Origin: Trichoplax adhaerens
Taxonomy: Eukaryota > Animalia > Placozoa
Reading direction: 5' to 3'
DNA: 64,000 bases
NCBI RefSeq assembly: GCF_000150275.1
Contig: NW_002060964.1
Span: forward strand, 858,975 to 922,974
Below the pieces are notes generated by a model. That model was given only the letters and a program-made list of their open reading frames with translations, was not told where the DNA came from and did not search any database. Below, in pieces: positions 23,836-59,200 of this stretch. Each line of letters begins with the position of its first letter. Positions within the stretch are counted from its first letter, which is position 1. A program made the position numbers and the translations under genes.

Positions 23836-24578
23836 CCTTGTAGACTCTACAGTGTAGAGTAGGCCCAGCCATAATAACCCCGATTACTCAGATACTGTAG
23901 AGTCATCTAAATGGGATATCGCCGCCTGATTGACATTGAATAACAATAGCCTGTGAAGGACGTCACAAAAGGATTTTTCCTGTTCGATAGTTGGCGAAAC
24001 TATTGTGACAGTCAATTCAACGATTGAAAATAGTGAGTCGGCGGATTCACTTTCTACAGCGTTGTCACAAGCGGTTCGATTGAATCGCCAATAATCCATT
24101 CAGTCTATCTCTCGGTCAACCTTGGACGCTTCATCATTGCCTATCTTGACCTCCATCATTTCTACCATCCTATACTAAAACGAAATGGCCAAGGTGGACT
24201 GAAATTTTCCCTCTCTTGTGTCCTTTTTGCTTGGTTCTTCAGATTCAATAAATAATAATAATATTATTTTCCAGCCTTGTTTTGATTCATTTCTTGACTG
24301 CATTTTTGAATCGTGTATTCATTGGAATAATCCATCAAGTTGAGCTATTTTTACCTGTTATGATGATCCATTTTACCTCTATGTATGCGAGCTGATCCTA
24401 TCCCGTCGCCATCATCCATTCTCAGTACTTTTCCTTGACTTTCTGTTTGATTCTTAAAAGAGAGAATTGGAAAGAAATCAAAAAACAAACTCTTCATTTC
24501 CCCCATCTTGAAAAGAATCGATCGATCTTAAAGTTGCTGTAGTCTTTGTGGTGGCTAATAGACGATATAGTTTACACC

Positions 24579-30149: not shown

Positions 30150-30429
30150 TACACAGTACACGGTATAAAGTTACTGAACCTCTGACAGGTCTACGACAAA
30201 TGGTAATACTATCTGTTAAATGAGCACATTATCGTAAACCGTCAGCAAAGCGACGGGAGTTTGCACTAGTATATTTTCAAACTTGCTAGACCCAAGCATT
30301 ACACAGTACACGGTATAAAGTTACTGAACCTCTGACAGGTCTACTGAGTACGACAAATGGTAATACTATCTGTTAAATGAGCACATTATCGTAAACCCTC
30401 AGCAAAGCGACGGGAGTTTGCACTAGTAT
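30150..30429. repeat. Direct tandem duplication, period 150 bp
   Basis: tacacagtacacggtataaag...gggagtttgcactagtat at 30150-30272 and 30300-30429. The second copy has a 7-bp insertion. Confidence 0.95.
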
Positions 30430-30834
30430 TCATTATTTATACGCATCATTGAATAAGCCATTTTCTCTTGCACCTCAATCACTGCAACAATAAAATTAAA
30501 AGTGTTAATGTTACAAGATGCAATACGGCTATTTCTTTCTTACTTTAGATCGATTGATCAATTACGCTATCATGATTGAGCTATGCTTTTAACGTAGCAT
30601 GAAACGATAAAATTGAACATTAATGAACTCTAATTATGTTAGTGGCGTTGAGAATAAGATTCATATGACCACATTATGAGAAAATTGTGTTCATATTAAT
30701 ACATTTGATTTCTTGATCTTTGTCGAAAAGGCACCATATTAACGTACTTCTGTCGATGCATTTATTACCTTATTACTATCGTAGATGACCTATTTTTTAT
30801 TTATGAGAGTACTCTATATAGACTAATAGCAGCG

Positions 30835-31382
30835 TGTAATGTAACTAGTATTGTGATTGTAGACTGTTAGCCATCTTTAGTATAATGTACGATAGATATT
30901 TATCCTAAGAGATATTTGGTAGCTATAACTATAGACTGTAGTGGTATAGACTCTATGCTAGAGTACAGATGGCTATATACAGTAAATTGTTGAGTTACTA
31001 ATAAGACTATAGGTAAAAATAGAACTGTAAATCATATTTCAGGATATGGTTAATTCATTGTACTTTGGCTGGTGTGAATAATGTCTGCGTAAGTACTGTA
31101 GTCGTATCCATATTGGATTAATGATGGTCCGCAGTAGAATAGTCTTACTAAGAATAATTTAACTATGTGTAATATAAGGTAAAAGGTTGCCATTCGGATT
31201 GTAGCTGCGAATGCTACGAAAAGTATAAAAGCATGCAACTTTAGATTATTTCAGTTAGTTCGTTGTAGAAGTCATTAGTAGTAGTATTCGGCTATAGTAG
31301 AACTGTGTGCAGTTAATCTTTGTATGAGATTCATTAAAGCCCTTATTTTTCTAAAATTTGGAATCTCGTGATTGGTATATAT
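30835..31382. repeat. Dispersed approximately 550-bp repeat, copy A (probable non-autonomous TE fragment)
   Basis: Highly similar to 60044-60589, same orientation. Both carry the same 62-aa - strand ORF. Confidence 0.9.
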
Positions 31383-33513: not shown

Positions 33514-36500
33514 ATGCAGATTGCGTCAAGAAATGAAATTCTTGTCTATGCGTATTTGATTGTGATCTTATCTAGCGCATTATGTACTTCAGCACAAACT
33601 TCTAGATTAACTAAAAAACAACAACATTATTTGCGATCTCAAGGTATAGTCAATTATTACGTCTTCGAACCGTACCTGGAAGAGAAAAACCAACCCATTA
33701 CATGGCCATTGACATCACCAAAATCGTCAATTACTCTTGATTTCTTTGGTTCTGAACTAACATTTGATCTGAAATTAAACGATGGTTTACTAAGCCGCCA
33801 TTTTCACCACACGTATCAGCAAGGCCAAGATAAGAAGCGTGTAGAAGGTTTATCGCGTCCATTTTGTTACTATCATGGTCAAATTAGACAAGCAGAACAT
33901 GTAAGTAAACCATTCACATTTATGCCATCTTGAATCATAATCTAAAACGTGGCTTACGTTAGCCATAATCACTAGTTCGTACATTGTTTCAGTCTTCAAA
34001 TCGCACGATGAAAATACGAACATTTTGTAGGACCAAATCAGTGGAATGACCAAATAAAATATAGCTACACTTACATACCTATATAAGGAATAATCGATCA
34101 ACACGATATTAAATTGAACATGTTAACAATGAATACATTTCATCCCCATCAGTTTAGCCTCAACTGAAAAAATAACTCATCAGAGCGATAAACAAGAATG
34201 GGATGTAAATAAATTCCTTGCATAACAGCATCCATATTGAATAGTTAAATAACATGTTATCGTAGAAGTAATAAATTCATCACTGTATCCATGCTAGGCA
34301 ATTAGGTACCGTACATACACTTTAGTCATTTTCCAATCGATTCATCATCAAGTTTCTCCAGTATCATGATAAAAATAAATAATCCTATACTTATGCTGAG
34401 TTATGCATCTGTATGATACTCGACATACAGTTGAGTAGCAATCCTAACAAGATCGAGTCTTATCCACATGTATATGAGAATCTACTGTACTGTGTACTGT
34501 ATACGTGCTGTATAGTCAAGAGTATTTAATGACTGGGACTGCAAAAAATATATTCACCACATACATACCATCCATAAATCATAATCGAACAACATAAATC
34601 TGCTTATCAGAGGGACTAAGTCACAGTTAGTAAAAAATCGAATAGTGACCCATTTCTGGAACTAGAAATTGAATTCCAATCACATCCGTGTTGTATGTTG
34701 ATAATCTTATCGCTACTGTAATTGATGGAAGCAATTTTCATTGGATCCATTTCCAACGATAAAGTTAATTAATGAATCTTAAACAAAACTGTTTTTCCAT
34801 ACCCGTACTAGGCAGTGGGGTATTTACTTACAAAATTACCCAGAATAACTACCGTACTATTCATGCATATCTTCATAAATTATAGTTAGACACGATTTTA
34901 TTAGCGATAAGAATTGCAAAGGAACAGGACTTGTTCATATGCATTTCTATACTTTTGACTCAACTAATTTCTCATCACGGCTTGGATAAGCAAAAGCAAG
35001 TTTTATTCATTGCATGTTTCCATACTGTAAGATCGAACGATAATTCATAACTAAGACTATAAATTGTAGTTAAACCTAATCAATGCAATTTTATACACGT
35101 CCAATGTATATAATATGTTTAGTGTAACATATATGATGCATAATCTAATAATTTCTTTCGACCGGAACGAAATAAATCTATATCATATACGCTTATACAA
35201 CCGATAAATAGCGAAATAATATCTTGTTTTTAGAACTGCTAGAGAAAGTTGGAAGTACATGCTGTATATTAACACTTCCAGTATTTAGAGGAAGTCTATG
35301 TTTGTATAGTAATACAAATGAGCCTTTATCGTATACTGCAATAGAAGAAGCATCCTTACAGATATCATTAAATTTGTTTTATATTTCTAAATCTATTTCT
35401 GTTTATTCCTTATTTATAAGACTCAAGATCATGTTGCTATAGCGGCATGTCGGGGATTAGAGGGAACATTCGAATATCGTGGAAAGAACTATGCAATTCT
35501 ACCTGTTGATAACCAAATTCATATCCTTTATCGCCAAGAGGATAGCCATGACAGTTTAAACGATTTTACTCGACAACATCGATGTGATTATGCTGTTGCA
35601 GAGGGGAATGATGATAGGCGTAAGATGATGCAAGAACAAAGGCAAGCCAGTCATCAACGCCGACGTCGTAATGCTCTTAACGAAACCAAATATTTGGAAT
35701 TAGTTTTAGTCAACGATAAGCGATCCTACGATTTATTTAATGGTAATTTGACAACACTGGAAAGTCATACTATTCAAGTAAGTACGATGATTTAATAACC
35801 TAATTATACAGTAAAACTAATTTCTCATACGTCTGGCTTACGCTTTTTGACCCCGATTACATTGCCTCCATGAATTAGAAAATCTGATCAATTTTGAATA
35901 GATTAGAACATTAAGTATGATTAGGTTACATATGAAAAATTTTGAGATTCTCCTCCCTTAATCATTTCTATTATCTTTCGAGCTAAAAAAATCAATTATA
36001 AACCCCTATCACTATGTACTTTAGTAAAATCACGATATTAGATATTTTTGATAAACACTCTTAACTGTAATCAATTATATCATAATTAGTATTCGGCTTT
36101 AAATCAAACCCGCAGCTTCGTACTATTTCATTGTTGATATGATGCGATAAATAATTTAATTACCGAACTTCAAATCATTTTTTATTCGGATTTTAAGGTA
36201 TACGCATAATCTAATAAAATCGAAGGCAATTACCCGAGTAAACAGCCTGAAATAAGACCGATTTATTGACAGAAAAGATGCATTCCTGTAAAACCAGTAT
36301 TGAAACTGATTTCTCATTAGCATAAGCCACAATGTGTTTCAAGTTTTTAAATTCTTGTTACATGCCTCTCAACACCATTATTAGAAATAATACCATAAGA
36401 ATGACTAAATTTACACAGTATAATAAGTCTTTAAAGGTCAAATAGTCATTGACGCCGACTAAAAGCTAATTCGAGCGCTACTATTCTATGATAACGCAAA

Positions 36501-39500
36501 CATCCTCATTTTAACAATTATCATCGCCAAAGGGTAGAAAGACTATTCTATCCCATTTGAATAGCTTTAAGTTAAGGCATATTCAATAGTGATGACTCAG
36601 ATAACATTGAGACGATAGTTATTGAAAAGGCTATCTTAAATGACAGTATCACTTATTATACCGTGAGAATTAATAAGAAACAAAATAATGCAAGGATAGA
36701 CGGTTTGGCGTAAACAATGCAAATTATTGTTATCTAAGTTCTTTCTTCAAGCATTTTAAGATTGATTTTCAGGTTGATTTTCAATTTTCGGTAAAGCACT
36801 CTATGCTCATTATTAAGTCAAGTCCAAAGGAAGTATAATTAGTGAACGTTGTAAATCTTTCATTGATGACAATGTCCGATTAAGCATTTGTCCTCGACTC
36901 AATAGGCTCCCAATTGTACGGAAAAGGATTTATTGATCTAATTAATAGATAATATAGAAGTCTGATGCCTAAATAATGCAATGTTCAAAGACAGTTCTTT
37001 AAATAACATATCAATTTATAATCTTAAATTGAAACGATTATGATTAATCTTTATCTCTTTTATTTTTACTGATTTATTTTACTCGCTAATGTAGCTATTA
37101 TAATTAATGAATAATTCTTCTAAACTTCTGGATAAGTTTAATATTATATAGTTACACTTTATTTATTGAACGTAGATATAGATTTGATCGTCTTATAAGA
37201 CTACTAAGGATGATAGCACTATTAATTTCAACTCAATATTACTCTAGATTGCTAATGGCGTTGATCTACGTTACAAAACCATTCAAATTCGTGTAGCATT
37301 AATTGGTATCGTTACATGGTCTGTGCAAGATCCAATTACAGTCACGGCAGACGCTTCGGCAACACTAACCAAGTTTGCTAATTATTCACGCCTAGTCTTA
37401 AAATCTATTCATGCTTATGATAGTGCTCAACTCTTGACTGGAATCAGTTTAACCGGAAAATCAGGTAAGTTTATTCTCGATACAATATTTGATAGTAGTA
37501 AACAACGGCAAAGAAATTTGATTTAATAGCCTTACCGAACCAGTTGAATACCGTATTCATCTAGTAATAAGTGCCATACTACTCAAACGACCACTGGTTC
37601 AGATCTGCTAAGGAATAGAATTATTTTTTCTAGCTGCACCGAGCTTCCAAGTTGCCAATAATATTAATTATAAGTGATCTCTCTTTCTACAGTCAACATT
37701 AATAGCAAATTCAGCATACACTTATAGTATAGTTTATGATAGAAAGCAACTGCAAATCTTCTTTTTACCCTAGTTCATGCTTTGATGTCTTCTCTGTTTT
37801 GCTGTATCGATCGATAACTTTTCAAACCACTGCCCAACGGAAAGGCAGACATATATTTTATGCAAATGTACGCTTATACGTGCTCGAGTCATGAAAAATT
37901 TCCGGTATCTTAGATCATCTTATTATCAGTTGATATTTTAACATCGGCGATATTTTGTTACTCTATTAAGTATTCAAGTCAATGTCAATTAAATTAAATA
38001 TAAAATAGCAAGGAAAGTACACGTTACAGGCTCTAGATAGCGAATCAATCGCCTATAGCTTTACTAAAATGCAAATTCTATCTTAACTAAAGCGCTTTTT
38101 TTTCATACATTTATATCTATTGCATCTTGCTTACGTAGCCAAACTTCTTAAGAAATTTGTGCCATATCGGATTTCACTATCTATCTCCTCACTCCTTTAA
38201 ATTATGATTTAATACCCAACCTATCTCCCCGCAATGCCTGTCACTTACATCAATATACTAATGAAATAAATGTATTCGGTTTCATGTATAATATAGTATT
38301 GATAGTTACATTAGAACTGATATAGCTAAATCAGCTATGACTAATGTATAGGTAGAAATAAAAATTTGAATTGCCAAAAGTAGCCAAAATGAAACAGTAT
38401 GCTATTTATTCTATCTAGGTCTAGCCTATGTCTCAACTATGTGCCTATCCAATGCAGTGGGTATTTCCCATAACTCCAAAAATGTTGATCAAGTTGCCGC
38501 TATCCTTTCTCATGAAATTGGGCACGTTTTCGGTATGAATCATGATACTGGACGAACTTGCACCTGTGTTTATAAACCTAGTAGTGCCAAGATATGCGTT
38601 ATGTCTAGTGTACTCTCGCAGCCCTATCCGCAATCATTTTCAAGTTGTAGTGTTGCAGATTTAAATAAGAGCCTACAGGAAGGATTAGGCTCCTGCTTAT
38701 TTAATCAACCTACAAAATTAGCAACAGCACCAAAATGTGGTAATGGATTCGTTGAAGTAGGAGAAGAATGCGATTGTGGCTCGGTAGCAGAATGTACTAA
38801 TCAATGTTGTAACGCCACAACGTGTAAACTCCGTGCTTCAGCAAAGTGTGCTTCAGGTCCTTGCTGTCATAATTGCCAGTATAAAGCAAAATCAATACTC
38901 TGTCGTGGAGCGATCAATGACTGTGATCTGCCAGAATATTGTAGTGGTAAGTCAGAATTATGTCCAGCTAATATGGTAAAACAAAATGCGCTACAATGCT
39001 CCAGAAATACTGGTTATTGCTATAATGGGGCATGCTTAACCATTGATGCACAATGTCGAACACTATGGGGACCACATAGTGCAGATGCAGCTAGTATTTG
39101 TTGGAATCGGCTTAATGTTATGGGAAATCAATATGGATATTGTAAGAGATCTAGTAGTGGAGCTTATACTGGTTGTAGTGCAGCCAATGTTCGTTGTGGT
39201 AAACTACATTGCTGGACTAATGCTTCAGCGCCAGTAATAGGTGCTACTTGGAGATTGGCAACAGTTACATTTACTCAGGTAGTGGAGAAGAAGATGTATT
39301 AGAATTAAATTTTATGTAATAAATTTAGCTACCTTGACCATTTCATATTAAAATTGAAAGTGATCAATTAAAACCATAACTAATCTATTTCTACTCTCAA
39401 TTGTAATTTAGGGAAGCGCTCAAATACCATGTAAGAGCATTTCAATCGATTTAGGTAATGATATTCCTGATCCAGGTATTGTCATCGATGGAACCAAATG

Positions 39501-41813
39501 TGGTCAAGAAAAGATTTGCTTTAATAATGAGTGCCAAAATATAAAATCAGTCTTAAATATCAAAGAATGCAACCCAGCTAACTGCTCTAATCATGGAGTA
39601 AGGATTACATTGATAAGATATTGAAAACTCTCATTTCTATCGGATAGTAGAATCTGATAATAAGAAGTCACGTTTAGTATTCTACACTTTCATTCATTGA
39701 AATGCACCATGTTTCTACTATGATGATAGAAATTTTTCATATATTTATTCTCCAAATTAGATTTGTAACAGTAATGGCAATTGCCATTGCAATGCTGGAT
39801 ATGCTCCTCCTGATTGTAGCCAATCAGGTAATGGCGGTAGTATTGACAGTCATGGAAATCAAACAACTGTAAATCCTAGTGTAGGTTAGTAAAATTTCCG
39901 TCCTTTGCTAGTAATCAGATATTTATGTAGAATCCTGTATAATCGTAACCTTCTTGCACAATTGATTTCCTCCAGTGCCTAGCCAAGTCGTTTCCTCATC
40001 GACATCAACAGTCACAACATCACAGCAAGGTAGCTTTAAAATATTTCATATGTATTAGTGAATGATGCGGATTGGTTAATATTCTAAATGAACTACTTCT
40101 TCATTAATACTTCATGTATAAATTTAAGTCTTTGTACCGTAATACCGTACTAAAGTAAGGTAGCTAAATACTATTTTAAAAATTCTTTAATTTTATTTAT
40201 TTGCGGTCTTTCAGTTTCTTCCAGCCAGGTCCTATCTTCATCTATATCTACTACATTATCGTCGCAGCAAAGTAAGAAAGGGAATAAATATAACAAGATT
40301 ACATCCTATAATGTGTAGCATTAAGAATGAATAGAGTAACATTAGTTCATGGAAATGTTGTTGGATATTATCTCACGGAATAAGTTTTCTGTAGTTACTC
40401 TAGAATACGAGTTTACCAGAAGTTTCATAGTTAGCATCAACATGAAAGATTAAATATTTAATCCAACGGCTTTGAGGCTTCTATTCCACTCTTTTTTATT
40501 TATCTGCATTTGCAGCACCATCGTTGCGAGTAGATTTGGATGCCGTAAATCAAATGCCTACATTATGCGTATACTATGCATCATTCTCGCGATAAATCAG
40601 CTATGACCATTGGATACAGCATTAAATATTTATTTTGCTTACGTCAGATATCTCTGTAGTGTGATGCGGCGAGTTATGTGCAAATTTATTCTTAAACTTA
40701 CCATCTTTACTCACAAATTATCTATCAAAAACACAATTTAAATATTGTAAATTATTTCAGCTATTGCTCAACTAATGGTTGATCTTTTTTGTTGAAGCCT
40801 CTAGTCAAACGCCTACCAGTTCTTCCATTTCAGTAACATCATCTCATCAAAGTAAGAAGCCAGGAAATTTAATTGCGTTTCCTATTAGGATTGATATCTA
40901 AATTGCTATTTCTTGTTAAAATGAAAGTCAAATTTATATCATTTTAAGTTATTGCTGAGAGCAATGCAGAAAATTTAAATATAACAGTCTTGAATATTTA
41001 CAACAACCTTTGAAAATCAGTCAGCACTAATTAAAAGATAATTTGAACTGTTTTAGCATCTTCTTCATCGGTTCATCAAACTACTACAACAAGCTCAGTC
41101 ATAAGTACATACACTACAGCTTTGCTTCTTTCACAATAATTAGAGAAAAAATAATATATATATAGTTAATTAACTGGTTTAAAATCACTTCTATTTACTA
41201 CAGCATCAACTCTATCCTCTACAACATCGCAAAGTACAGGTAGGCCACTAAATGTTAATTTCGTTGTCATTCTACTCTAAAATGATTGTCAACTCCTATT
41301 TTAGCCACAACAGGAATTAATCCTACTAAGGCTACGTCTAGTGAGCCAGCAACATTCACTAGCTCTACCTTTGGTAAGTACAAAAATTTAAAGATACATT
41401 ACCTTACTATAAAACTGGTTGAGATGACTATGATCATCACTGTACCGGTTTAGTAAATTTACTTGGCAATTGCATCTATTTCTTATAGATTTATCACTAA
41501 TCTTAACATCAGAAGCTATCACCAATCAATCGGGTAATTTATTTGAGTGAAATTAGAATATATTCCTTATTAAAAATAGTTGCTTAGTATTCTGGTGTTG
41601 GTTGTACTTAATACTCTTTTTATTATCTGCTGCTTTCGCACATCTATAGAACCAAATGGAACTTTGGCCAATTCGGATGCGACACCTACGATACAGCCAA
41701 GTCCAATTGGAACATTATCAACAGAAACCAGCGATGCAATCAAACTACAGCATCAATCAATGTGGATCCCATTAATCCTGACTTTGTTAACTCTATTGAT
41801 ATTTAAGCCATAA
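33514..41813 (+). CDS. ADAM-family metalloprotease-disintegrin, copy 5, micro-exon-encoded S/T stalk, predicted GPI-anchored
   Basis: Exons 33514-33900, 35421-35777, 37248-37464, 38419-39278, 39412-39597, 39761-39884; micro-exons 39976-40029, 40215-40271, 40798-40851, 41057-41104, 41204-41239, 41305-41373, 41489-41533; last exon 41650-41813. [30 protein letters not shown]; ends ...[30 protein letters not shown]. Confidence 0.9.
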
Positions 41814-42686
41814 GTAAATTATTACTATCATTCCACCTATGGCAATTATTATAATCGTCTAGATAGAATGTAGTAGATAAGCATAACTAACCTATATGAA
41901 GTATACCACAATAGTTTCGAAAATAAACCATTCAAATTAGTCTGGAATTTTTACATTGACTGTACGGTGGTAACATCATGAAATAATACTTTTATCAAGA
42001 TATAGATTTAAATAATAGTATCGCGACAAAAGCATTCTGAAACAAATACATTTTGATTACTCAAACAAGGCTAATGTTGAGAAAATCACTCTTCTATGCA
42101 ATTTTATCATAGATACCGTAGAGTAAAAGTTGCTATTTTATCAATTTTAAAAAGTTTGCATATTAAAATCAGATTCATCATTACTGTAGCTTTTATAAAC
42201 TCTTTCCATTCTGATTTTAATAAGCAGACACTTGTTCGTTACTTAGTTGATGTAGCTATAGGATAATATTTTTGTCTGTTATTTCTAAATAAAAAGCATT
42301 AATTGCCTGATAGAATAATTACGGATAGCTCCTCTTTAAAGAGCTTTAATAACATATTGTACAATGTTCGTTTTAATGCTTTGCATTAATTATAATATCA
42401 GAACCTTTCATAATTTATTTTTATCAGCAGTATCTAATATACCATCAAAGTCTTGCATATTATGAAGTAATCCTCCTACTATTCGATATATCTAATGCAT
42501 TATTACGGCATAGCCAGTTAGTTGAGTATACAGTGAAACATTTGACCCTACTTAAGAATATGAATTTATTGGAATTTGAACTATATTATTATACACGATT
42601 GTTATTACCGGCTGAATTATACATAGTCAGTTATCCCTACGCATATTTTATTTGATTAGGGTATTGGAAATAGGAATTTTGCATGG

Positions 42687-43434: not shown

Positions 43435-46400
43435 TTATATTGCGGTCGGTACTGGTATTTTTTTCGATTTTCTACGGTTAGATTTTAATCTATTTGGTTG
43501 AACCACGGATTGAATATTTTGGTCATTTCGCTGCCAATCTTGATGAAAATCTTGACGAATGATTTGGAACCGGTTTATTAATGCTTTCTTAAATGTTAAT
43601 TTCTAGTCATCGGCAAGAATAAATATCACATTATTGCAACAAACGCCGGTTACCGTAATTAATATAATTATTTTAAACTTTACTCATTTACAGCTACAAT
43701 AAGTTATTGCATCTTCTTACCCTAGTACTGGGGTGGCGAGTATCTTGTACAGCTGCTACAATCCATTCCATTAGAAGGATGACAATACTAAACCCAATCG
43801 TTATAAGCAAGATGTAGAAAATTCCTGCAAGGTTCTCCAGTTTAACTGGCTCAAGCCTTGAAGACGATTGTGCTGTATTGCAAGCTCCACCAAACCTGTC
43901 AATAGAAATAACGGTAGCATATTTAAATCAGCCCCAAATCATGCCATATTAGTATTAGGGTGCGATTGTTGAAAGCTCTAACAGCTCACTCAGGATTTGT
44001 CATAGTATCGATTGATGGTATCTAGACTACATTAGCTATATCCAATTTCCTTCTTACGAGATACATAACATTAATCTCTCTAATATAAGAGCATCCACTG
44101 AACTTGATAGGCGTAAAATAATTTCTAATAAATAAGCCAATTTAGTCGTAGCTTGACTTCATTAGTATCGATTACAATCAGATTAAGCAGCAGCCTTAAT
44201 AATAAATTGATCATAGAATTTAATTTATAGCTCTACTAAATATTATTCCAGTCATCATTAAAACTTATCCTATCGATACTGGGAGACCTATTTCCAATTG
44301 CTACTTAATTAAACCCCAATTTCATCTCGACTCTATCCTATATAATTAACTTACATATGTATTACACCTGCTGACGGTAAGCTCTTGACTTGATTTTAAT
44401 TAATAAAAGGGCTAATTAAGATCTCTAAGCTGATGGTTTTCTTCAAGAGGCTACATCATTTAAGTACAAATACTATACCTATGACGAAGTTAGAGCTCTA
44501 ATTTCAAAATTTAATGATAAAGCAAAATTATCATTAACAGTAGTCTAAAACGCTCCATGTGTTTTAATATCAAGGATACTCAAAATTTTGATGTAGCTAT
44601 CCTCGTGGACAGTTTATAACTATCAACTCAAGCATAATTACCATTTAGCTCGAAGAATATCTAAATAGCCTTCTTCACGCAATTTAAGTACTTGTATGCT
44701 AATTTCTTTCCAATAAAGGGACTCCTTTTGAACAGCTAAAGCGAGGCTATCTTCTTTAAAACTGCCAATTGTAGTTAAATTGCAATTTTTACTTTTTGCA
44801 TAATCTAACGTTGCCGTATCACTTATAAATGCATAAGGTTCAGTTGTGCCAGCTAAAACACGTTCTATTCCTTCCGCAGTATTGGCTACATTTTTCAAAT
44901 GATACTTCATATCTTTATAGGGCGAGATACTGGTATGTAAAAAGAATGTTTCTGTACTTGTGTTTGCCATAACACCATAACTAATGCCTGAAGTCCTAGC
45001 CAAATCTTGTAACGACTCAATGGCTAAGTAAAATTTACAAAAGATTTAAAAAATAAAACTAGTATAAATAAACGAAACATAATGAACTTTCTATCCGTCT
45101 AGTCTAATTAACTCCATAATGATAGAGCTTAGAGTATTAGGCAAACTTACTTGCATGCAAACTATTCACTGTTAAGAATGCAGTTAAATTAGCCGTATAA
45201 GTAGCTATCATGATGACCGAAGCTAGCCACCACATAGCTGTAATTAGGCGTGCAGATATCGATCTTGAAGTTCTTTCAGCCCCTTGAGATAAAAAAGATT
45301 CCAAAGTATACCACAGATTATTGCTAAATGAAAATGCCTCTAATTCGTTTTCCTTTTCAGTCTTCCAAAACTTTCTATCTTCTTCTGCTTGATCAGAATA
45401 GGAGTTTGATCTCTGCAATAATTTAATCTGATCAGCAGCTCTACCGTAATAATCGTATGGGCTTAACCGATTGATGCATGTAGTAACTGCTGCTATAATA
45501 ATTAATGTAATCACGATGCCAATCCAGACTTCAATCCTAAGCGGTAAGAAAGCTTGAAAAACCGAAACTGGTGGATTACTTTCTCGTAATGTTAAGACAG
45601 TTAGTCCTTGGTTAATGTACGGTATGGTAAAGTCTAAGACCTGCTGTCGTTCTGGTGTTATCGACAAAGCTGCTGCAGCAATATCAGCTTCCTGAGAGAA
45701 AAATTATTATAAAGATTCCGTAAAACTAATCGCATTCAATCCGACCGTTAGCTTTATCAAATTAAACGTTGGATAATTTAATCAGGCAATAGCGGATAAT
45801 CTGAATTAATTACGTTCAGCTACCACAGACTCAAAATTGTGCAGTAATTCATGGCAGTTCCTCCGCTATACGGAGGAAATTTAGCTGGTGCCAGGCAATG
45901 TATACTGTTGATTATATAGGATTGAATGCTATCCAATATTACTTAGTAAAAAGTAATACTTCATTATTGTATAATTGCGCCATAAATTAGAGAGCGACTT
46001 ACTCCGATAACAACTTCTCTCACCATACCCGTCCAAACGATAGCACCATATTCATTTCGATTTTGTACCCCATATTGACCATCCGCAACCAATCGAATGT
46101 CATACGTAAAATTCAAATTTTCACTTATACGATCTATTAAATCGATAATGTAGCCATCATAGCGACTATTAGGCGTAGGACTATTTGAATTTTCGATAGT
46201 AAATGGAGGTTCCTGCATTTGTTATCAAATAAATATAAGAACTGCTTAAGTATGATTACAATGATTATTTTCTCACGTATTCAGTGATAAAGTTATTAAC
46301 AACTTAAATACGAGTAAATCAGTAGTATGATTTCCACTACTATATCATAAATAAAAATTTGCACGGATGTATATAATCGTAAACTTTATCATCATTTCAT

Positions 46401-49400
46401 CTCTCTATGTTCGTTAAATATCAATAACAAATCGTCCAAAATATTTTCGTGATATAGCTGACAGTATTAATAGATGCAAAATTTTCCATTCAAGAAAGAA
46501 TTGTAGATGGATAAACTTTAATACAAATATTTAGATAATCGTACTACAACCTGGATAGCTGAGAATGCAGCATTGAAAGCATAGCATTCATTATTGATCA
46601 ATGTCTCCAGATTATACGATATAATGAAAAAGATATTTTAAAAGTTAGAGAAGGGACTTACAATAATAGTCGTAACAATGAGGTTCTTGCCATTTAGAAA
46701 CGAACCTGAATCAATGATATGATTCATTCCATCGAAGAAGTAAATTACATCATCATCAAGATTTAACTTGTGATCACTAGTCCAATCCCCAACCTGATAA
46801 TTGAAGATAAGCTTAATGTAGGTTAGCTGTACAATTCTCCTTCATAAGTTATTATTATTATCGATGTAAAATAAAATGAGGCAATGTTATTATAAGCAAA
46901 TTAAGGATGTAATATACTCTTCAATATTTCTAATGATGACTTATTTTGATCGTATAATACGGTAGAAAATGCGTTACTTTATTGTAAAAATTAATTTTAT
47001 TACTCTCATGTCTCAGATTTCATTGTCTACTGTACGTTACAGCATAATTGCCGATTACCTACAGATTAATTTACGGATAAAATATTAGTTTAATAATAAT
47101 AAATCTGAGAAGCACATACTCCTAAGGGGTATATACTTAGGTAGTTTATTTAGAGAAGAAAAGATTGCATAAATATTAAGAAATGCAACAAATTTGCCGA
47201 CTAATCCGGAGTTGCTTAAATTATCTTTTGCTGTTAATTTAATTGATTGTGGCTAGAAATTTAGCTCTATAATACTTTGGAACTTTCTGGTTTAATTTAT
47301 AAGTTAACTACAAACTCCTGTTTCTCTTAGTCAAAGATTATGGCATTGTTTTCAGTGTCGCTATGGGAGAGCCGTCTAATCTTTTAAAATTACCTTAGCC
47401 CATGTCTGGCCATGCAAATTAACGATATCATAACCAACATTAGCTGGGCCACCATCAGCATCAAAATCAATGGATAGGATAGTTGATGGACCGGATGACT
47501 ATGAATTGTAAAAGAATTACAGGAACTAAAAATTTCGAAATTCTTATTCAAAATTCGCCTTGCAGTTATGAGTTGAATACTATATAGATTCATTGCTCAA
47601 ATAATGCGATGTTTATAAAAAACCAAACTAAGACGCTTTGCATTACAACAGAACACATAGACTTAACTACTATTTTATAGGACTAGCATGCTCCTTAAGA
47701 AGATCAAAGCAGGAGAAATGTAACTTAACTGTTTCTATATAATGAAGATTATGCTGTCGTTTCCAAATTTGAGAACACATGATGTTATTGCACTATGAGT
47801 AATGGTATCTTGAATTATTAGTATCTCCTAATTTATGTCTAGTGGGCAAAATAAAATTTGGTCTGTAATCTTTATGTAGATAGCCAAATAATATTAAAAA
47901 TAATCCATGGCAAATCATCGCATTACATTTTTACGGTCATAACTTAAAATATTGACCTTATCGATATTCATATGCTAGTAAAGGCCTTTATCTGAAGATG
48001 CTTATATTTCAAACATTTGGTATAAATCTTGATTGTGTTCTATCATTCTAACCTCTTTAATTAATTGTAGCATTTCATATCCATCTTTCCAGGGAACAGG
48101 AACTGTTTTAGTGGTACAAGTTAGGTTAGCTGGATTCAATGATAGACCAGCCTTTAGCATCTTTTGGATACCATACCCAGCTGCTAAAACTGCATCAAAA
48201 TACTGCAAATACAAAGACTGCTCGGATAAAGAATGAAATAAAAAATAAATTATGATAAGTCTGTCGTTTTAAATTTTATAGATCAATTTTGTTATTATAA
48301 CTGGAATTAAATTGCTAGCGTAACACTTAGAAAAATATGAAAAAATAACTGCGAATATACATTATTTTTGTGTATTGAATTGTACTAATTATCCTTAATA
48401 TCTCGTAAAGCTAATAATTCTCTTCTCACTTAGGTAAGTAATTATCTTATGTTCAAGTCGTTAATTACCTCAATTGGTTGATTATATTGTCTAAAATATT
48501 TTGCTGTTACATTATGATAAAGCTGTCCGTGATTGCTATAATATCGTAATCCTAGTAAGCCATTTAAGTACGTGGGTAAGTTGGAGGTCTGCGAAACAGT
48601 AAAGAATATCATCACTTTAAAAACTGCCAGAAAGTCATAAAAACATGGCAAAAGATTTGTTTAATGAGTTAGCACTATAGTTTTAATTTTATAAAGTAGT
48701 TAAAGTAGGATTGAAACTGCTATATTGACCTTTATTTCTAGATATTAGCAGGTATAGATATAGAACTCTCTCTCTTACAATACTGTAGGAATTCAAGACA
48801 GATTACTAAAGAAATTAAATGTACAGCTGTATTGATGGTTCTTTTATTTAGAAGGTTATGTAATAAATTCTATAGCAACATGCAAGTGAATCCACAGTAT
48901 TCAAATTAGAGCATGTAGTGTTTATCATCCTATTGATCAGTTAAATTACGACTATCTATTGTCATAGCAATGCGTGCTTATGTGAAAATTAATTTTGCTA
49001 ATTATCAATCATCCGATCGGAAAAGTTTATTTGTACTAATTCAGCGATCAATATTGTTGATGTATACTAAAAATAAACTTTCTTAAGACCTCAAACCTGA
49101 GCATAGTCCAACTAATTTACGATCAAACTACATTATTCTACTGTTGGACAAGCATTAATGCCTATCTGTGCTGTCCAGTACATCGCTCTACCTGCGAAGC
49201 AATAGCATCGGCAGCTATCCAACACCATCCTCGATCAAGCATACCATAAGAACGTGCTTTACTAAATATTTGCATTGCCTGGCTAGCTAAACAGCTAATA
49301 ATAACAATTCTTGTACCTAATAATATTTGCATATATAACGTAATCATGGACAATATCATTATCATGACTATATTATGACAGCAATAACATATTTCAAATT

Positions 49401-50662
49401 ATAAGCAACGTAATATTATTTTCCGTTACTAAACTTTTACAATCGAATAGTGATTTCAGCTAGTTACGGTAGTTGTGATTTTTAAAATATGATGATAAAA
49501 TTGAAATATGTTACTATTGTATATGATGCAGAATAGACGGTTATGCTAAATAATGTAATTATCGATAATGGCCGATATTGGTCTTTATGATGAAATGGTG
49601 CAAAGATAATTTTAAAGTGGGTATAAATGTAGTGTAGAATATTAACTATTGTAAATTGCACAAATATCATTTTAAATTTTATCGAGGAATTATTTAGCGC
49701 ACAATAGAATTTTTAATAAATTTACCTGAATTTTTAATACGACGTAAATGACTTTCAATGTCAACTAAATTTCCTGTGCGATCAATCCTAAATACTTCAA
49801 AAGCAAGAATCCTCCAGGATTTCCTCGATGCTATTTCACGAAATTTGGTCATTGAATTAACGCCTAAAAAATTTAAATTGTCTTATGTTATCGACTGTAG
49901 AATCTTAGCTATGGCTTCATGTTTCACTAATTCCACTAATACGTTTAAAAAAAGCAATTTCGAAGGCGAATAAAAAGTTAATTCGCTCCCAGAAATATTT
50001 TTGAACATTACATTTATAGTCTATTTTATAGCAATGCGATCATACTGGTAGTACCCATCTCTTGATATCTAACCACGATTTATTGTTTGAAAATAATAGT
50101 AAATCTTACCAAAGTCCGTATTAGATGTTAGTATAGTCATTTTTGTCCATCCATAATGGCTGATGATGGATGCAATGGTAGTACTTTCTGTTGTAGCAAC
50201 GGGTAGCATTCGTAATAAGTAATTATAATTGGGATTACGGACTAAGCTTGGGTCTGAAGCTAATGGAGCAATCTGTGGCATATTTAAGGCTGAACAAGCA
50301 AATTGTGTCCCTTTTGTTGCACTAGACACTACTGGCCCTATAATCACCATAAGCTCTTCCTTCATAGCATTGCAAGCTAGATTAAATGCAAGTTAAAAGA
50401 GAGCATAAATAGGAATATTCATAGCCAATGGAAGTTCGTTCAATAAGTATAACATGTAGTAGTAGGATACTGAAACGAAATTGATCAATTAATTTACCAC
50501 TTTGAAAATTATCATAAGGACTGTACAGATCTGTATGATAATACAAGGCAGACAACTTAGTTTGATTTAAATCAATTTGAGGAATTTCATTTCCATTAAT
50601 CATATCGATTGCTAGTTGGACTGCCCGCTCTAGCTTTATATAATCCGGTGGCAGTAGAACCC
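43435..50662 (-). CDS. Ionotropic glutamate receptor-family subunit A (non-NMDA-like, possibly Epsilon subfamily); signal-peptide exon not located
   Basis: Exons (5'->3') 50662-50498, 50376-50110, 49863-49726, 49316-49192, 48588-48469, 48217-48053, 47498-47394, 46793-46662, 46212-46003, 45691-45151, 45023-44642, 43895-43721, 43602-43435. ATD (VIIGP, MPQIAP, HYGWTK), S1 (GYIIDL, DGQYG, LSITPERQQVLDFTIPY), M1-M2-M3 (RSISAR, TYTANLTAFLT), S2, M4 (LENLAGIFYIL), tail ...PVPTAI*. Confidence 0.95.
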
Positions 50663-53600
50663 CTAGAAGGATATTAAAGTCATCTGTTATGTTAAACTTA
50701 GATGAAATTGATTTTGAAGAATTAGAAATAATATAGCTTAAAAATTTGCTCAACTTCATCATTTTAGATTAATTAGGCAATCATAATTATTGCAGCTTCT
50801 TCAATACTTTGCTAAAGATATTTCAAATTCACTAGAATTCTATTTTCGATTCAAAATATCCATCAAGTAGAAACAATGATAAACAGATTGATGTAAGTAG
50901 TTGCTATAATGAATAATTTCATTGCGTTTAAATTCAGAATTTTTTTCAATAGTCATAGTACTCTATTAAGTACAAGGTATTCTAATATGTAATTGGTAAA
51001 AGATATTTTGGACAATCATTGATTAATATTAGACCTTTTTATACCGATCTAGACATTAATCGTAAGGTATTACAATGTTTTACTGACAAAATGGAGGCGC
51101 TAAAGTAGCTAATATAATTAGAATAAGATTTTTCTGAACTTTACAAAAAAAATACTTCATGAATATTCCTAATTTCATATTTGATAGTCATAAAACATGA
51201 TTTTTGAGAATGATTTTCAAATCAAATAAATCCAACCTCATTGTTAAAAAGCACCAAAATCTGCTCATAAACTTTTCCGGTGAATATAAGATTTTTGGCA
51301 TACATAACATGGTTTTATTGAAATAAATAGGCATATTATTGCCAAGAAAATCAGATATGAGTCAAATAATCCATGTGATTGATTTATGATAGTCCATAAC
51401 CTGTAATTGCCGGTACTGTAGCAGCTATCTACTAATACTGTAATTTAATAGAGATTCATTTACAATGACATAGCTAAAATAACTTTTATCTATCAATCTC
51501 AACTACATAAAAGTTATAAAGGAATTGTTAAAATTGCTTACAATTCTCAATCAATTTAATTAGTCTGTATCATAACATTTTACTTTCTGGTACGGACAAA
51601 GCCAATAGCTAACTAATTTCTAGCTAATCTGTAGGCTGAATTGAAACAGATCAGTAAAACCGTAGCTGCAATAATTTTGAAGGAAAAATGAAGCTTGACG
51701 ATATGAGTAAGAATTGTTTAAAATTTTAACATGACTGAATTAAATTAAATTTTTTACATCATTTGCTAATCAAATAGTCCATCTATGTGGATGAGTTATA
51801 TTTCCTAGCTACACGTAATTACTACTGAGTAATCCCTGCAAAAATGAAATTAATCGACAAAATGACGGCGAAATCAATTTTAACCAGATTAATCTCAAAA
51901 ATATATGCCTGAATCATTAGAATGATTACCGGTAGATGATTAAATCCAATACTTTCACCAGTTTGTAATTCAAATATTGAATCTATGTGATTAACTTTGT
52001 TTTCTCGATACGTATAATGCCGTTAGATAATTAACTGCTAACTCATCCCTACAATAACTGAAACTGATTAATTATCAAAACAATAAAAGAATTAATTTGG
52101 ATGCAGTTAATTTTGATGGTATAGATAAGAATATTGTAAACATCGCTAAATCTTATTTAATACTTCTAACCAGGAAAGGCAATATATCAATTAATAGATC
52201 TATGTAATTAAATCTTGATAATATTGTAGTGTTTACTTCTAAATACGGCGTAGTCCATTTAAAGTGAAACGCTAATTTCCACTAGACTGTAACATAACTC
52301 TAAATATGCTTAACTTATATTTAGCAAATTTACACGGTGGAAATCTCTTAGACTCTAGCTAGATTATGCCGTAGTATTACCCTTACATAGAAGTAACATA
52401 TTATTATGAATCATCCGTGTCTATAAGTAATTTCCTCCTGCTATGCTCTTAATGTAATAAAAGCTATCTTCTTTCGCCAATTTCATTAGTTAGTTCTGGT
52501 AGGTGCACGGTAAGCTTGCACGCTTTACCTATTCTACACTACTATAGTTATTCGACTAGTCACATCGTTACCTGCACGATAATCTTACACGATTATTCTC
52601 TTTCACTAGCTCAATAAGGATTACTCTTCTATTAACTTTTCTATTGTAATTTATTGCGACTAATGTCGAACTCTCAACCTTCGGCAACATCACAGATATA
52701 ATGTCTTTATCAGCTGATTGCTAATTAGCCGTACAGTGCTTAAGTTGAAAATTGATTGACAGGAAGATAGCATAATTAATTAATCTAATCCTAAAAAAAC
52801 ATAAAAAGATATTCATTATCAAGGCCAAGTTCAGTACACTTAATATAAAATGCTTATCTACTGAATAATAAACTAAAATATGACTAGTTTGACCTTAAAT
52901 TAAATAGCGTTGTGATTGCTGTATAAATTGATAAATGAAACTTCCTATATACATGCCAAATTATAATTAAAAACGTGTTTATCTTCATACTTTTACTCAA
53001 ATGTAATAAATACTGTGGAACGTAGATATTACGAGATATAAATTTATATACTACTAGTATTGCGGTTTTATTAAGAAAAGCGAATAAAACTTATAGGTAT
53101 ACGAAAAAATTTAAATTAAATTCGAATTTCAATTTCTCTTATGATAAGTATATCTCAAGTAACGCGAATGGCATCAGCAACTTTTACAGTCTTGGCAACT
53201 AAAAAATTGTATAAAGAAGCTAATATGCAAGGATATCACTGCCATGTCTAAGAGACAATCCTTTTTACTAGAAAGCGAACTATATAAGTGAAACTTAAAC
53301 GCCCCGCACGAGATCTATATATGGTACTCGTAAATTTACTCATGAAACTGTAGAAATGGCTGATTTCATTCAGGATACTAGATAATATACGAGTATATCG
53401 TAAGCGCTTAAAAATGAGGACATTGAATCAATATCATCCTATTCAGACGATTTATCTCATGCAAAATGATAAGCTACTCAAGCAGTGCTCGTTTTAATTA
53501 GCTAAACTAGAAAAATTTTTAAGGTAATCTCAGCCGTCTCTGCATCGTTATTTATGAATGAAAAATTTCCATTCGTGTTATTCCTGGACATGTCACTCTT

Positions 53601-56298: not shown

Positions 56299-59200
56299 TT
56301 AAATCATAGTTGAGCCCTTTCTGCTACCTATCTGGTAAAGATCTTTGGAATTTAATTCATCTACTTTAGTCCTGTAAGATAGATCTGACAATAAGTCATC
56401 CAAAACATATCGAAGCCGCTGTTTCATGGCCCTCTCAAATGACATCACCTAATGGTATAAGCAAAGGGAAGATTACTAGAAGTACTGCATCAAAAAGATT
56501 ACATCCAAGTTTTATTCAAGGCCGTAATACGAGTATTGACTAAAGGTCACTAAATGGGTTAGTAATCAGATAATACTCTCTTACTCTCGTGCTAGTACTT
56601 CGTGTATCTTTAATTGCAGCTACAATCCATTCTATAAATAGTATAGCAAAGCTGAATCCAATTGCAGCTAGCAGCATGTAAAATACCCCTGCAAGATTCT
56701 CAAATTTTATAGGATCATGGCTTGAAGCTTGCGCATTATTCTTACATTTTCCATCAATCCTGCAGTAGAAGAACAGATTAGAAATGTATCTCGTTGCTAA
56801 ATATTATTTGCATACTATCACATTTATTTGGACTTGAAACTTAAAAATCTATCAGCAGCCTAAATACCATTTTGCTTTCAGCTTATCTAGATATCCTAAC
56901 TCGTTTAGTTTCAATATCTGCATATTAATTTCTTCCCAATAAGGTGATCCTTTTGGCACTGCTAGACTTAATCTGTCTATTTTAAATTTTCCAATGGTAG
57001 TCAAGTTACAGTACTTACTTTGGGCATAGCTAAGCATTGTAGCACCTCCAATGAAAGCATACTGCTCATTTTTACTGGTCAGTACACGTTGAATGCCATC
57101 CTCAGTAGTAATCACATTTTTTAGATTTTTTTTCATTTCTTGATAGGGCGATATTGTAGTTTTTGAGAAGAAAGATTCATAGCTGCTATTAGCTAGAACA
57201 CCGTAATTCAAGTCTGGATTTCTAGCTAGATCCTGTAAGGAACTGAAGGCTAAATTAATTCAACAAAAAAGTAAAAATAAGAATGATAGCGTTCAATTCA
57301 TATTCATCAATTAGACAGGATAATAGCGATGTCATTATTAGTCATCATAAATTATTTTTAGCAGGATTGTAATTGTTACTTAAGCTTACTAGTATGTAAA
57401 CTGTTAATTGTTAAGAATGCAGTTAAATTTGCAGTATAAGTTGCTGTAATGATGACGGAAGCAAACCACCAAATTGCAGTAATTAAACGCGCAGATATCG
57501 ATCTTGGGGTCCTATCAGGTCCTTGTAATAAAATTGAAGCCAATGCATACCATAAATTATTACTAAATGAAAATACTTCTGATTCTGATTCTTTCTCTAT
57601 TTGCCAATATTTATAACTGTTCTGTAATCCATTTTCCATGTGTTTACTTTTGTTTGAGGCTCTCAATCTGTATATAGCTCTACCATAATAATCAAAAGGA
57701 CTCCAGCGATTCATACAGGTAATCACTGCTGCTACGATAATCATTGATATCAAAATACCGATCCAAACTTCAGTTTTAAGAGGAGAGAATGCCTGAAATA
57801 AAGAAGCTGGTTGAGTTGCTTTGGTTGCTGTTAAAATGGTTAAAGCTTCATCAAGGAAGGGCATAGTAAAATCTATAATTTGCTGGCGTTCAGGAGTAAT
57901 AGACAATGGTGCAGCACCAATATCGGTTTGCTATTAGAAAGAATCCCATAAGTAAGATTTAAAAATTTTGTCAAAATACAGTATTGTATTACACTTATAG
58001 CAATCTACTAAAGAAGAGCTACATAATAACTAATAGCTCCTTTTGCATCTCAAATAGCCTAATGCAACACAGAATTATCCTATAAAATATTAAATGTGTA
58101 TATTATTAGCTGAAAAGTCATAAATCAACATTTATGTTAATTAGCTGTGATGAAAATGATATGCAACTTTTGCAACGATTGCTTAGAAATCTTCACAGGC
58201 TACTATGCTACTTCGAGGCTTTTATTATTATCAACATCAACAGCTACTAATCTTCTCGACTACTGTTTCATGATTAATAACGAGTACTTTAAGGTACTAT
58301 AATTGACACACGAAGCCAGATAAGAATTAACACATACTCGTACATTATCAAATATCATGTAAATGTTAACATAAACTCTGATATTCACCCCATTAAGTAT
58401 TTCGCCAATAATTCCTGACCATGTGAAGGTACCATTAACACTGATTTCAGTACCATAAAAACCGTCCGCAACTACTCTCACGTTATACGAAAAATTTAAA
58501 TTTCTACTAATTTCATCCATTAAATCGATGATATATCCTTTATACTTTTTACCAGTAATAGCATAATCATTATCTATCATTATGAATGGAGCGCTCTAAA
58601 ATAAAATAACAAGAAAATTACAACAAAAGATATTTAATAGCTTATTAACGAGTTTATAAAGGAATGCCAATATCGGGGATAATACATAATAAAAATAATA
58701 GCAGCTACTCCATATCGACTGCTCTACCTTTCTGCCATCTCCTTCACAATAATTACTACTAAGAATTAGTAATAGAACAGGTAAATATTTTACGAGACCA
58801 CGTAATGGATTGTTTTGGAGATCAGTTAGCTGCTATATGTAAGTACTGCGTAGCCATGAAAGAGGAACCAATATTTTTAGACTACGAAAATCTCTACAAT
58901 TGAATATCCTTACTAGCAAAGCTATTTCATCAAACATTCAGTATCTTTTAATGATTCTTATGCATTTATGTCTATATACTGTAGTACTATTGCTTTTCAT
59001 TTTCAATAGCAATTTCCAATTATCATTACAAGAAATAATCTGATCTGCATCTACTACATATTATAATTTTATACTTAAAGCTAGTAGTCTTACCAAAATG
59101 ATTGTTGCAGTGAGATTTTTGCCACTGATGAAGGAGCCAGAGTCACTTATACGGTTAACTCCCTCGAGAAAATAGGTTCGATCGTGATCTAGACTTAAGC

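What the first reader, a model, noticed from the sequence alone, without database searches (positions are those of the whole stretch)
39976..41533. Cassette of seven symmetric, in-frame micro-exons encoding a modular mucin stalk
Seen, and invisible to the ORF track: exons of 54, 57, 54, 48, 36, 69 and 45 bp, each AG/GT-bounded, each phase 1-1 and a multiple of 3, each stop-free and S/T-rich. They encode [100 protein letters not shown] and [14 protein letters not shown]. The first three look like exon duplicates. Any subset can be skipped without frameshift, giving up to 128 combinations. Established analogies are CD44 variant exons and schistosome micro-exon genes. Inference: a splice-tunable tether length for a GPI-anchored protease.
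Basis: partly seen in the sequence, partly recalled or inferred. Interest (0 to 1): 0.78.

Follow-up and report, generated by a model that had tools for sequence, protein, structure and literature searches.

The report
Short-exon mucin stalk on placozoan ADAM
Seven short exons in a Trichoplax protease gene are real and are spliced into one serine/threonine-rich stretch that likely forms a sugar-coated stalk holding the enzyme off the cell surface, but public RNA assemblies show only the form with all seven, so length tuning by splicing is unsupported.

Summary
All seven AG/GT-bounded, phase 1-1, 3n, S/T-rich exons lie at the stated places. RNA-derived contigs of five runs from five studies splice them in order into an 885-aa ADAM (M12B) metalloprotease of Trichoplax adhaerens, the last of five tandem paralogs. 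The reference gene model lacks the cassette. No skipping junction was seen (0 of 28 possible in the complete joint table), and two contigs run unbroken through all seven exons; contigs drop rare forms, so minor skipping stays open. Symmetry needs no splicing explanation: the host intron is phase 1 in all five paralogs, so any exon added by duplication or exonisation must be 1-1. Stalk length differs between paralogs in the DNA (about 47, 62, 121, 186 and about 450 residues after the EGF motif): a likely exon deletion, repeat expansion within one exon, and this multi-exon cassette. The GPI anchor is a motif-level prediction. Best reading: a mainly constitutive mucin-like stalk on a predicted GPI-anchored placozoan ADAM. 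It is built like the CD46 STP region but is not shown to be alternatively spliced, and it is not a schistosome MEG.

The parts
33514..33900 (+). First coding exon of ADAM gene E: signal peptide and start of the M12B propeptide (a 5' UTR exon ends at 33396)
   Evidence: RNA joints 33396>33505 and 33900>35421; hydrophobic N-terminus; PF01562 E=3.6e-8
35421..35777 (+). Exon 2: rest of the propeptide, RRRR furin-type site (aa 209-212), start of the catalytic domain
   Evidence: RNA joints; motif scan
37248..37464 (+). Exon 3: reprolysin domain, N-terminal part
   Evidence: RNA joints; Pfam on P0129/P0130
38419..39278 (+). Exon 4: zinc motif [12 protein letters not shown] (aa 352-363), disintegrin and cysteine-rich domains
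39412..39597 (+). Exon 5: end of the cysteine-rich domain, start of the EGF-like domain
39761..39884 (+). Exon 6: EGF-like domain; ends in phase 1, as in all four paralogs
39976..40029 (+). Short exon 1 (54 nt, phase 1-1), likely duplicate of short exon 2
40215..40271 (+). Short exon 2 (57 nt, phase 1-1)
40272..40797 (+). Longest cassette intron (526 nt); low-depth unspliced contigs cover it in X4, X5, X6 and X7; read-through would stop after 15 codons
40798..40851 (+). Short exon 3 (54 nt, phase 1-1), AAG acceptor; absent from the H2 gene model
41057..41104 (+). Short exon 4 (48 nt, phase 1-1), weakest splice sites of the cassette; absent from the H2 gene model
41204..41239 (+). Short exon 5 (36 nt, phase 1-1)
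41305..41373 (+). Short exon 6 (69 nt, phase 1-1)
41489..41533 (+). Short exon 7 (45 nt, phase 1-1), carries an N-glycosylation sequon at aa 829
41650..41813 (+). Last coding exon: end of the stalk, candidate GPI cleavage site S859 (codon 41730-41732, S-D-A), polar spacer, hydrophobic end from M869 and a two-residue tail; the 3' UTR runs to about 42200-42320
   Evidence: RNA joints and contig ends; hydropathy; the GPI reading rests on recalled motif rules, no predictor was run

Best explanation
The seven exons are spliced together, mainly all at once, into a 121-residue serine/threonine-rich segment that likely acts as an O-glycosylated stalk lifting a predicted GPI-anchored ADAM metalloprotease off the cell surface of Trichoplax. 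Shown: splicing of all seven in order, an intact frame, the domain order propeptide-reprolysin-disintegrin-Cys-rich-EGF-stalk-hydrophobic end, and an intact zinc motif. Inferred: the stalk grew exon by exon inside a phase-1 intron (at least one tandem duplication, exons 1 and 2), which forces every added exon to be 1-1 and 3n, so symmetry records how the stalk was built rather than ongoing splice choice. Also inferred: reach is set mostly per gene, since the five tandem paralogs carry stalks of very different length in their DNA. O-glycosylation, the GPI anchor, protease activity and substrates are untested.
For: Consecutive joints in 5 spliced runs of 5 studies and no skipping joint among 14 rows (complete table) or 15 shown rows. 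X5#13 and X9#25 run unbroken through the cassette (674 = 674 letters), and the breaks in X6 and X7 fall exactly where the unspliced-intron contigs branch off (423 = 423; 453 = 453). The EGF exon ends in phase 1 in A-E; A has one 159-nt 1-1 stalk exon; B has the same exon swollen by 12-nt repeats (71 copies); C lacks it, with both flanking intron halves still 67-93% like A's; D has none. Seven extra phase-1 introns by random intron gain would have p of about 4e-4 at a one-third prior. Exon skipping is low in T. adhaerens relative to other non-bilaterians and goes with long flanking introns (PMC6142364, passages); six of the eight cassette introns are under 200 nt, and all eight lie between 65 and 526 nt. 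Symmetric exons arise from duplication and shuffling (PMC6335736, first part of the text). Tail shape: 4 of 131 stored proteins passed the GPI-like rule, all of them Trichoplax, against 71 with a membrane helix plus tail.
Against: Contigs cannot show rare isoforms (tool text), and the runs are probably whole animals (inference), so cell-type skipping would be diluted. 38 joint rows were hidden, and X4 lacks the exon 1-2 joint. The H2 model P0130 skips exons 3 and 4, the two with the weakest sites (AAG acceptor, AA|GTACAT donor). The Patthy paper itself says that new symmetric exons are prone to skipping. A duplication signal is absent for exons 4-7. No orthologous stalk could be fetched to test conservation. 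GPI and O-glycosylation are motif-level only.
Confidence: 0.72

Rival explanations
1. Regulated alternative splicing tunes stalk length in some cell types or conditions (the first reader's model in a limited form, most likely skipping of exons 3 and 4), as in the CD46 STP region.
For: All exons can be skipped in frame; exons 3 and 4 have the weakest sites and follow the longest intron; the H2 model lacks exactly these two; CD46 precedent (PMC2118878, abstract); contigs hide minor forms.
Against: 0 of 28 possible skipping junctions; unbroken full-inclusion contigs in X5 and X9, and from exon 3 to the 3' UTR in X6 and X7; X6 shares the H2 model's allele at 41778 yet includes exons 3 and 4; the H2 model is a MAKER/Augustus product (PMC6057997, passages) that fuses two genes; low skipping rate in the species.
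Confidence: 0.17
2. The stalk was one long exon that later gained introns, or the exons are exonised intron with little constraint; symmetry is incidental and the region is a neutral spacer.
For: No sequence relation among exons 4-7 or among intron flanks; paralog D manages with almost no stalk.
Against: Random intron gain giving seven more phase-1 introns has p of 6e-5 to 8e-3 for priors of 0.25 to 0.5; exons 1-3 share an SSS...SSQQ/SSHQ pattern. Exonisation is compatible with the best explanation.
Confidence: 0.06
3. The stalk reading holds but the anchor does not: the C-terminal hydrophobic stretch is a short membrane helix with a two-residue tail, or the protein is secreted.
For: No GPI predictor was run; canonical ADAMs are type I membrane proteins (71 of 131 stored proteins); the GPI rule used was a simple hydropathy cut-off, which the A-type tail (P0127, 1.83) narrowly failed.
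Against: About 15 hydrophobic residues at the very end, a polar spacer and small residues S-D-A 26 residues from the end fit recalled GPI-signal rules; all five paralogs end in a hydrophobic run without a cytosolic domain.
Confidence: 0.15

Closest known systems
ADAM family (M12B reprolysins; ADAM12/19/33/8/15-like branch)
   Same: Signal peptide, PF01562 propeptide, furin-type site, PF01421 with HExxHxxGxxHD, PF00200, PF08516 and an EGF-like domain; 42-49% identity to vertebrate ADAM12/19/33 over the long exon.
   Different: A 186-residue tail after the EGF motif with a mucin-like stalk and no cytosolic domain; the median EGF-to-helix distance in the 71 membrane-type homologs is 26 residues. 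S/T-rich stalks alone are not unique: three unnamed homologs (P0012, P0017, P0026) have 82-88-residue stalks, 37-43% S+T, before a helix and tail.
CD46/MCP serine/threonine/proline-rich (STP) exons
   Same: Short exons encoding an O-glycosylated membrane-proximal spacer below the folded domains (STP-B is 15 aa; PMC2118878, abstract). The best structural analogy.
   Different: CD46 skipping is proven and gives major isoforms; here only full inclusion is seen. Unrelated protein family; CD46 is a type I membrane protein; the stalk here is poor in proline (3%).
CD44 variant exons and CD45 exons 4-6 (recalled, not read)
   Same: A run of in-frame exons inserted in a membrane-proximal or extracellular glycosylated stem.
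   Different: CD44 variant exons are skipped by default and are longer; here inclusion is the default and no variant is shown.
Schistosoma micro-exon genes (MEG)
   Same: Short symmetric exons in the 6-81 nt range and a signal peptide (10.1101/2023.06.21.545858, passages).
   Different: MEGs consist of 10-20 very short exons (mostly 15 nt) with introns up to 5 kb, encode small secreted proteins and give many isoforms. Here seven exons of 36-69 nt make 13.7% of a multidomain enzyme, introns are 65-526 nt, and one isoform is seen.
GPI-anchored metzincins (MT4-MMP, MT6-MMP, leishmanolysin; recalled, not read)
   Same: A zinc protease held at the cell surface by a GPI anchor, if the prediction holds.
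   Different: Different families (M10, M8). No GPI-anchored ADAM turned up in the listings, which were not read in full.

Membership tests
ADAM (M12B) | Propeptide, reprolysin, disintegrin, Cys-rich and EGF-like domains in order | tested here: met
   Pfam on P0129, P0130 and exon 1; spliced model
ADAM (M12B) | Intact zinc motif HExxHxxGxxHD | tested here: met
   [12 protein letters not shown] at aa 352
ADAM (M12B) | Type I membrane helix with a cytosolic tail | tested here: not met
   The hydrophobic run ends two residues before the stop, so it is filed as a variant: ADAM ectodomain with a different anchor
ADAM (M12B) | Proteolytic activity | not testable with these tools
   no assay
GPI-anchored protein | N-terminal signal, small residues at the cleavage site and +2, polar spacer, terminal hydrophobic run, no cytosolic tail | tested here: inconclusive
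   The pattern is present by hydropathy and by eye; rules recalled, no dedicated predictor
Mucin-like stalk | S/T-rich, Cys-free, membrane-proximal segment | tested here: met
   58% S+T over 121 aa; last Cys at aa 688
Mucin-like stalk | Dense O-glycosylation | not testable with these tools
   no glycoproteomic data
Alternatively spliced stalk cassette (CD46 STP / CD44 variant type) | Symmetric in-frame short exons in the stalk | tested here: met
Alternatively spliced stalk cassette (CD46 STP / CD44 variant type) | Major isoforms that skip exons | tested here: not met
   no skipping joint; unbroken full-inclusion contigs
Alternatively spliced stalk cassette (CD46 STP / CD44 variant type) | Minor or cell-type-specific skipping | not testable with these tools
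   all 23 listed runs are held as contigs, none as raw reads
Schistosome MEG | Coding sequence made mostly of 10-20 very short exons; small secreted protein; many isoforms | tested here: not met
   13.7% of the CDS, seven exons, 885-aa enzyme
Microexon (size class) | 27-30 nt or shorter (strict), or 51 nt or shorter (loose) | tested here: not met
   0 of 7 strict, 3 of 7 loose; thresholds from abstract starts of PMC7935315, PMC7821500 and PMC4317164

The most novel reading that the evidence does not exclude
Placozoans have their own clade of GPI-anchored ADAM proteases whose reach above the membrane is diversified twice over: between tandem paralogs by exon loss, repeat expansion and exon accretion, and within gene E by cell-type-specific skipping of short symmetric exons (most likely 3 and 4). 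This would be a CD46/CD44-like stalk ruler in an animal lineage with very little exon skipping, missed so far because the reference gene model omits the cassette.
Probability: 0.15. Interest if true: 0.65.

Novelty: new variant of a known kind. Interest (0 to 1): 0.33.

Why it matters
It corrects a gene model: the reference protein TRIADDRAFT_32445 (P0129, 524 aa) lacks the signal peptide, the cassette and the anchor signal, and the H2 model fuses two genes and drops two exons. It points to a placozoan ADAM clade that appears to have a GPI signal instead of the membrane helix and tail, with stalks ranging about tenfold in length across neighbouring genes, a compact natural series for asking how tether length sets the substrates of a surface protease. 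It is also a clean example that symmetric short exons are not by themselves evidence of alternative splicing. If skipping were found in raw or single-cell reads, it would be a proteome-diversifying cassette in a lineage with low exon skipping.

Tried and rejected
No whole genome is held for this window, so no genome-wide intron-phase or splice-site baseline could be built; splice strength was judged only by matches to a recalled U1 consensus, where cassette donors score 5-7 of 9 against 5-9 of 9 for the six upstream donors. The metagenome scan gave 6 loci from 353 candidates, all weak zinc-motif matches (E 1e-6 to 3e-5), none placozoan-like. A search with the EGF-stalk-tail part of P0130 among shorter proteins gave 3 hits, all to the EGF part and none to the stalk, so no transcript-derived isoform or ortholog stalk was found. 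P0121 (76% identical, sister to gene E at 100/100) covers only the long exon. Retention of intron 40272-40797 as a switch to a secreted form was considered and set aside: its contigs (depth 6.9-18.7 against 69-921 for the spliced path) are of the same order as other intron contigs in X4 and X6 (about 5-8), which fits pre-mRNA background, and contig depth is a poor measure. Exon duplication with flanking introns was not detected (1 of 42 flank tests at p=0.004, not significant after correction). Contig breaks in X4 inside exon 1 and 10 nt into the last exon do not fall where a skipping branch would, and were not counted for or against. Paralog D joints were among the hidden rows, so the paralog stalk structures rest on genomic sequence and public gene models, not on RNA. 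Three look-ups of earlier findings returned nothing. Literature searches for this gene or cluster listed no paper on it; the accession search found 0 papers; only listings were seen, and subscription journals and supplements were not searched. A search for guinea-pig DAF stalk splicing gave no usable paper, so that recalled precedent is not used. No structure or complex prediction was run.

Full report
Setting. The window is Trichoplax adhaerens DNA: proteins TRIADDRAFT_32380, _64349 and _61393 match ORFs of the window. It holds five tandem ADAM genes on the + strand, here A (ends 2756), B (ends 12638), C (ends 21846), D (ends 29905) and E (33514-41813), followed by ionotropic glutamate receptor-like genes on the - strand (that family label is from recalled motifs, not tested). 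The finding lies in gene E, annotated as TRIADDRAFT_32445 (P0129, 524 aa), which lacks the first exon, the cassette and the last exon.

Observation. A blind scan of AG/GT-bounded, 3n, stop-free, S/T-rich segments recovers all seven exons at the stated coordinates. Under a similar rule, 200 Markov resamples of the region give 0.25 phase-1 candidates on average and never more than 2. With exon borders taken from RNA joints, the gene has 14 coding exons, 2658 nt, 885 aa and no internal stop; exon 6 (EGF-like) ends in phase 1 and every later intron is phase 1. The cassette encodes aa 711-831: 41 Ser, 29 Thr, 11 Gln, 4 Pro, no Cys.

RNA evidence. 23 runs were listed, all held as contigs; 8 were laid. 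X5, X6, X7 and X9 show 8 of 8 consecutive junctions, and X4 shows 6 of 8 plus a loose end equal to the start of the last exon. These five runs belong to five studies. X1, X12 and X19 are unspliced here, and X1 has one contig across 35355-42450, so the joined form was not seen as DNA. No skipping joint stands in the complete table (14 rows; 28 skipping junctions are possible) or in the 15 shown rows (38 hidden). X5#13 and X9#25 pass through the whole cassette, with 674 letters where full inclusion predicts 674. X6 and X7 each break once, exactly where a low-depth contig of the unspliced 526-nt intron branches (423 and 453 letters predicted and seen), and then run unbroken from exon 3 to the 3' UTR. 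Limit: Logan contigs collapse minor variants (10.1101/2024.07.30.605881, passages). From recall of the assembler's rules, short side paths under roughly a fifth of the main depth can be removed, so this test speaks for major isoforms only.

The one hint of skipping. The Trichoplax sp. H2 model RDD38338.1 (P0130) contains exons 1, 2, 5, 6 and 7 but not 3 and 4. These two have the weakest sites (AAG acceptor; AA|GTACAT donor with the poorest pyrimidine tract). But the model fuses genes D and E into 1562 aa and comes from MAKER with Augustus and GeneMark (PMC6057997, passages), and weak short exons are what such predictors tend to miss (inference). Run X6 carries C>A at 41778, which gives the same L-to-M change as P0130, and it includes exons 3 and 4. 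I read the gap as a likely prediction miss, with a minor isoform not excluded.

Why the exons are symmetric. The intron after the EGF exon is phase 1 in all five paralogs. An exon added there by duplication or exonisation must be 1-1 and 3n to keep the frame, and each addition creates another phase-1 intron. Random intron gain into one long exon would give seven more phase-1 introns with p of about 4e-4 at a one-third prior. Exons 1 and 2 look like duplicates (11 of 17 aa, p=0.0002; DNA p=0.003 before correction for 21 pairs), exon 3 weakly (8 of 17, p=0.02-0.04; 10 of 17 with exon 2 when aligned from the start, no control), exons 4-7 not at all, and intron flanks have lost any likeness. This fits the view that symmetric exons come from duplication and shuffling (PMC6335736, first of two parts read), though that paper also says such exons are prone to skipping. 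T. adhaerens has a low skipping frequency among non-bilaterians, and skipping goes with long flanking introns and weak sites (PMC6142364, passages). If that survey used the reference models, it could not have scored this cassette (inference).

Stalk length varies between genes. Residues after the GGSIDS motif of the EGF exon: D about 47 (counted from P0005 and the last-exon translation), C 62, A 121, E 186, and B about 450 if its frame break is an assembly error (estimate). A has one 159-nt 1-1 stalk exon. In B the same exon is 1142 nt, expanded by 12- and 24-nt repeats, and changes frame near 11,900. C's intron aligns to A's two flanking introns at 67-93% identity but lacks A 2147-2420, which holds the exon; a deletion in C is the likelier direction but is not proven. 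So the cluster varies the tether in its DNA by three routes. These paralog structures rest on genomic sequence and public models (P0003, P0005, P0127, P0128), not on RNA joints seen here.

Protein. Pfam finds propeptide, reprolysin, disintegrin, ADAM Cys-rich and EGF-like domains; the zinc motif and a furin-type RRRR site are intact. The only hydrophobic stretches are the signal peptide and the last 18 residues. S859-D-A, a polar spacer and about 15 hydrophobic residues followed by two more fit recalled GPI-signal rules; no predictor was run. Among 131 stored proteins, 71 have a membrane helix with a tail (median 26 residues after the EGF motif), 4 pass a simple GPI-like rule (all Trichoplax), 18 have no passing hydrophobic run (including the A-type tail at 1.83 against a cut-off of 1.9), and 38 have no or too short a tail. 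Three unnamed homologs have S/T-rich stalks of 82-88 residues before a helix, so a stalk as such is not unique. In a tree of 27 of 29 chosen rows (P0027 and P0029 dropped for lack of the anchor motif), the Trichoplax genes and four unnamed proteins form one clade (99/93), and gene E pairs with P0121 (100/100, 76% identity), so gene E likely has an ortholog in another genome, probably another placozoan, whose stalk could not be fetched.

Mechanism. Most likely (0.72): a secreted proenzyme is activated at the furin-type site, receives a GPI anchor and dense O-glycans, and is displayed on a stiff stalk longer than that of paralogs A, C and D, reaching substrates further out in the surface coat. 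Splicing and domain content are shown; every step after translation is inferred. Regulated minor skipping keeps 0.17.

Comparison and verdict. It is built like the CD46 STP region (PMC2118878, abstract) but fails the test of major skipped isoforms. It is not a schistosome MEG (10.1101/2023.06.21.545858, passages), and most exons exceed microexon size. It is an ADAM by ectodomain and departs from the family in its anchor. Searches listed no paper on this gene, cluster or a GPI-anchored ADAM; only listings were seen, and supplements of placozoan genome and single-cell papers were not searched and may name these genes. Verdict: a real, unannotated feature and a new variant of a known kind; the headline claim of splice tuning is unsupported. 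Interest 0.33.

Noticed in passing
window 11052-12193: Paralog B's stalk exon is expanded by 12- and 24-nt repeats (TQAT units, 71 copies of the 12-mer) to 1142 nt, is not a multiple of three and changes frame near 11,900: an assembly error or a broken allele.
   Followed up: partly
window 21105-21691 against 1750-2583: Paralog C lacks the symmetric stalk exon of A and B while both flanking intron halves remain 67-93% alike: a likely clean exon deletion.
   Followed up: partly
window 1-2756 and 8700-12640: Paralogs A and B are near-identical, introns included: a very recent tandem duplication, differing mainly in the stalk repeat.
   Followed up: partly
window 40272-40797: The longest cassette intron is covered by low-depth unspliced contigs in four of five spliced runs; read-through would give an anchorless product. 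Probably pre-mRNA background.
   Followed up: partly
window 43694-51000 and 56500-62700, - strand: At least two tandem ionotropic glutamate receptor-like genes lie tail-to-tail with the ADAM cluster (label from recalled motifs in the ORFs).
   Followed up: no
window 23260-23530, 23830-24100 and 30150-31320: High-copy repeat elements (summed contig depth up to about 126,000 in X1), with TACAGTA-rich motifs and a 157-nt duplication at 30150-30429, sit between the ADAM paralogs.
   Followed up: no
window 14445-14716: 114-nt tandem repeat, 2.4 copies, between paralogs B and C.
   Followed up: no
P0131 (Trichoplax sp. H2, RDD36268.1): A more distant placozoan ADAM from another locus also has a long S/T-rich tail (175 residues, model partial), so mucin-like stalks may be general in this clade.
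   Followed up: no
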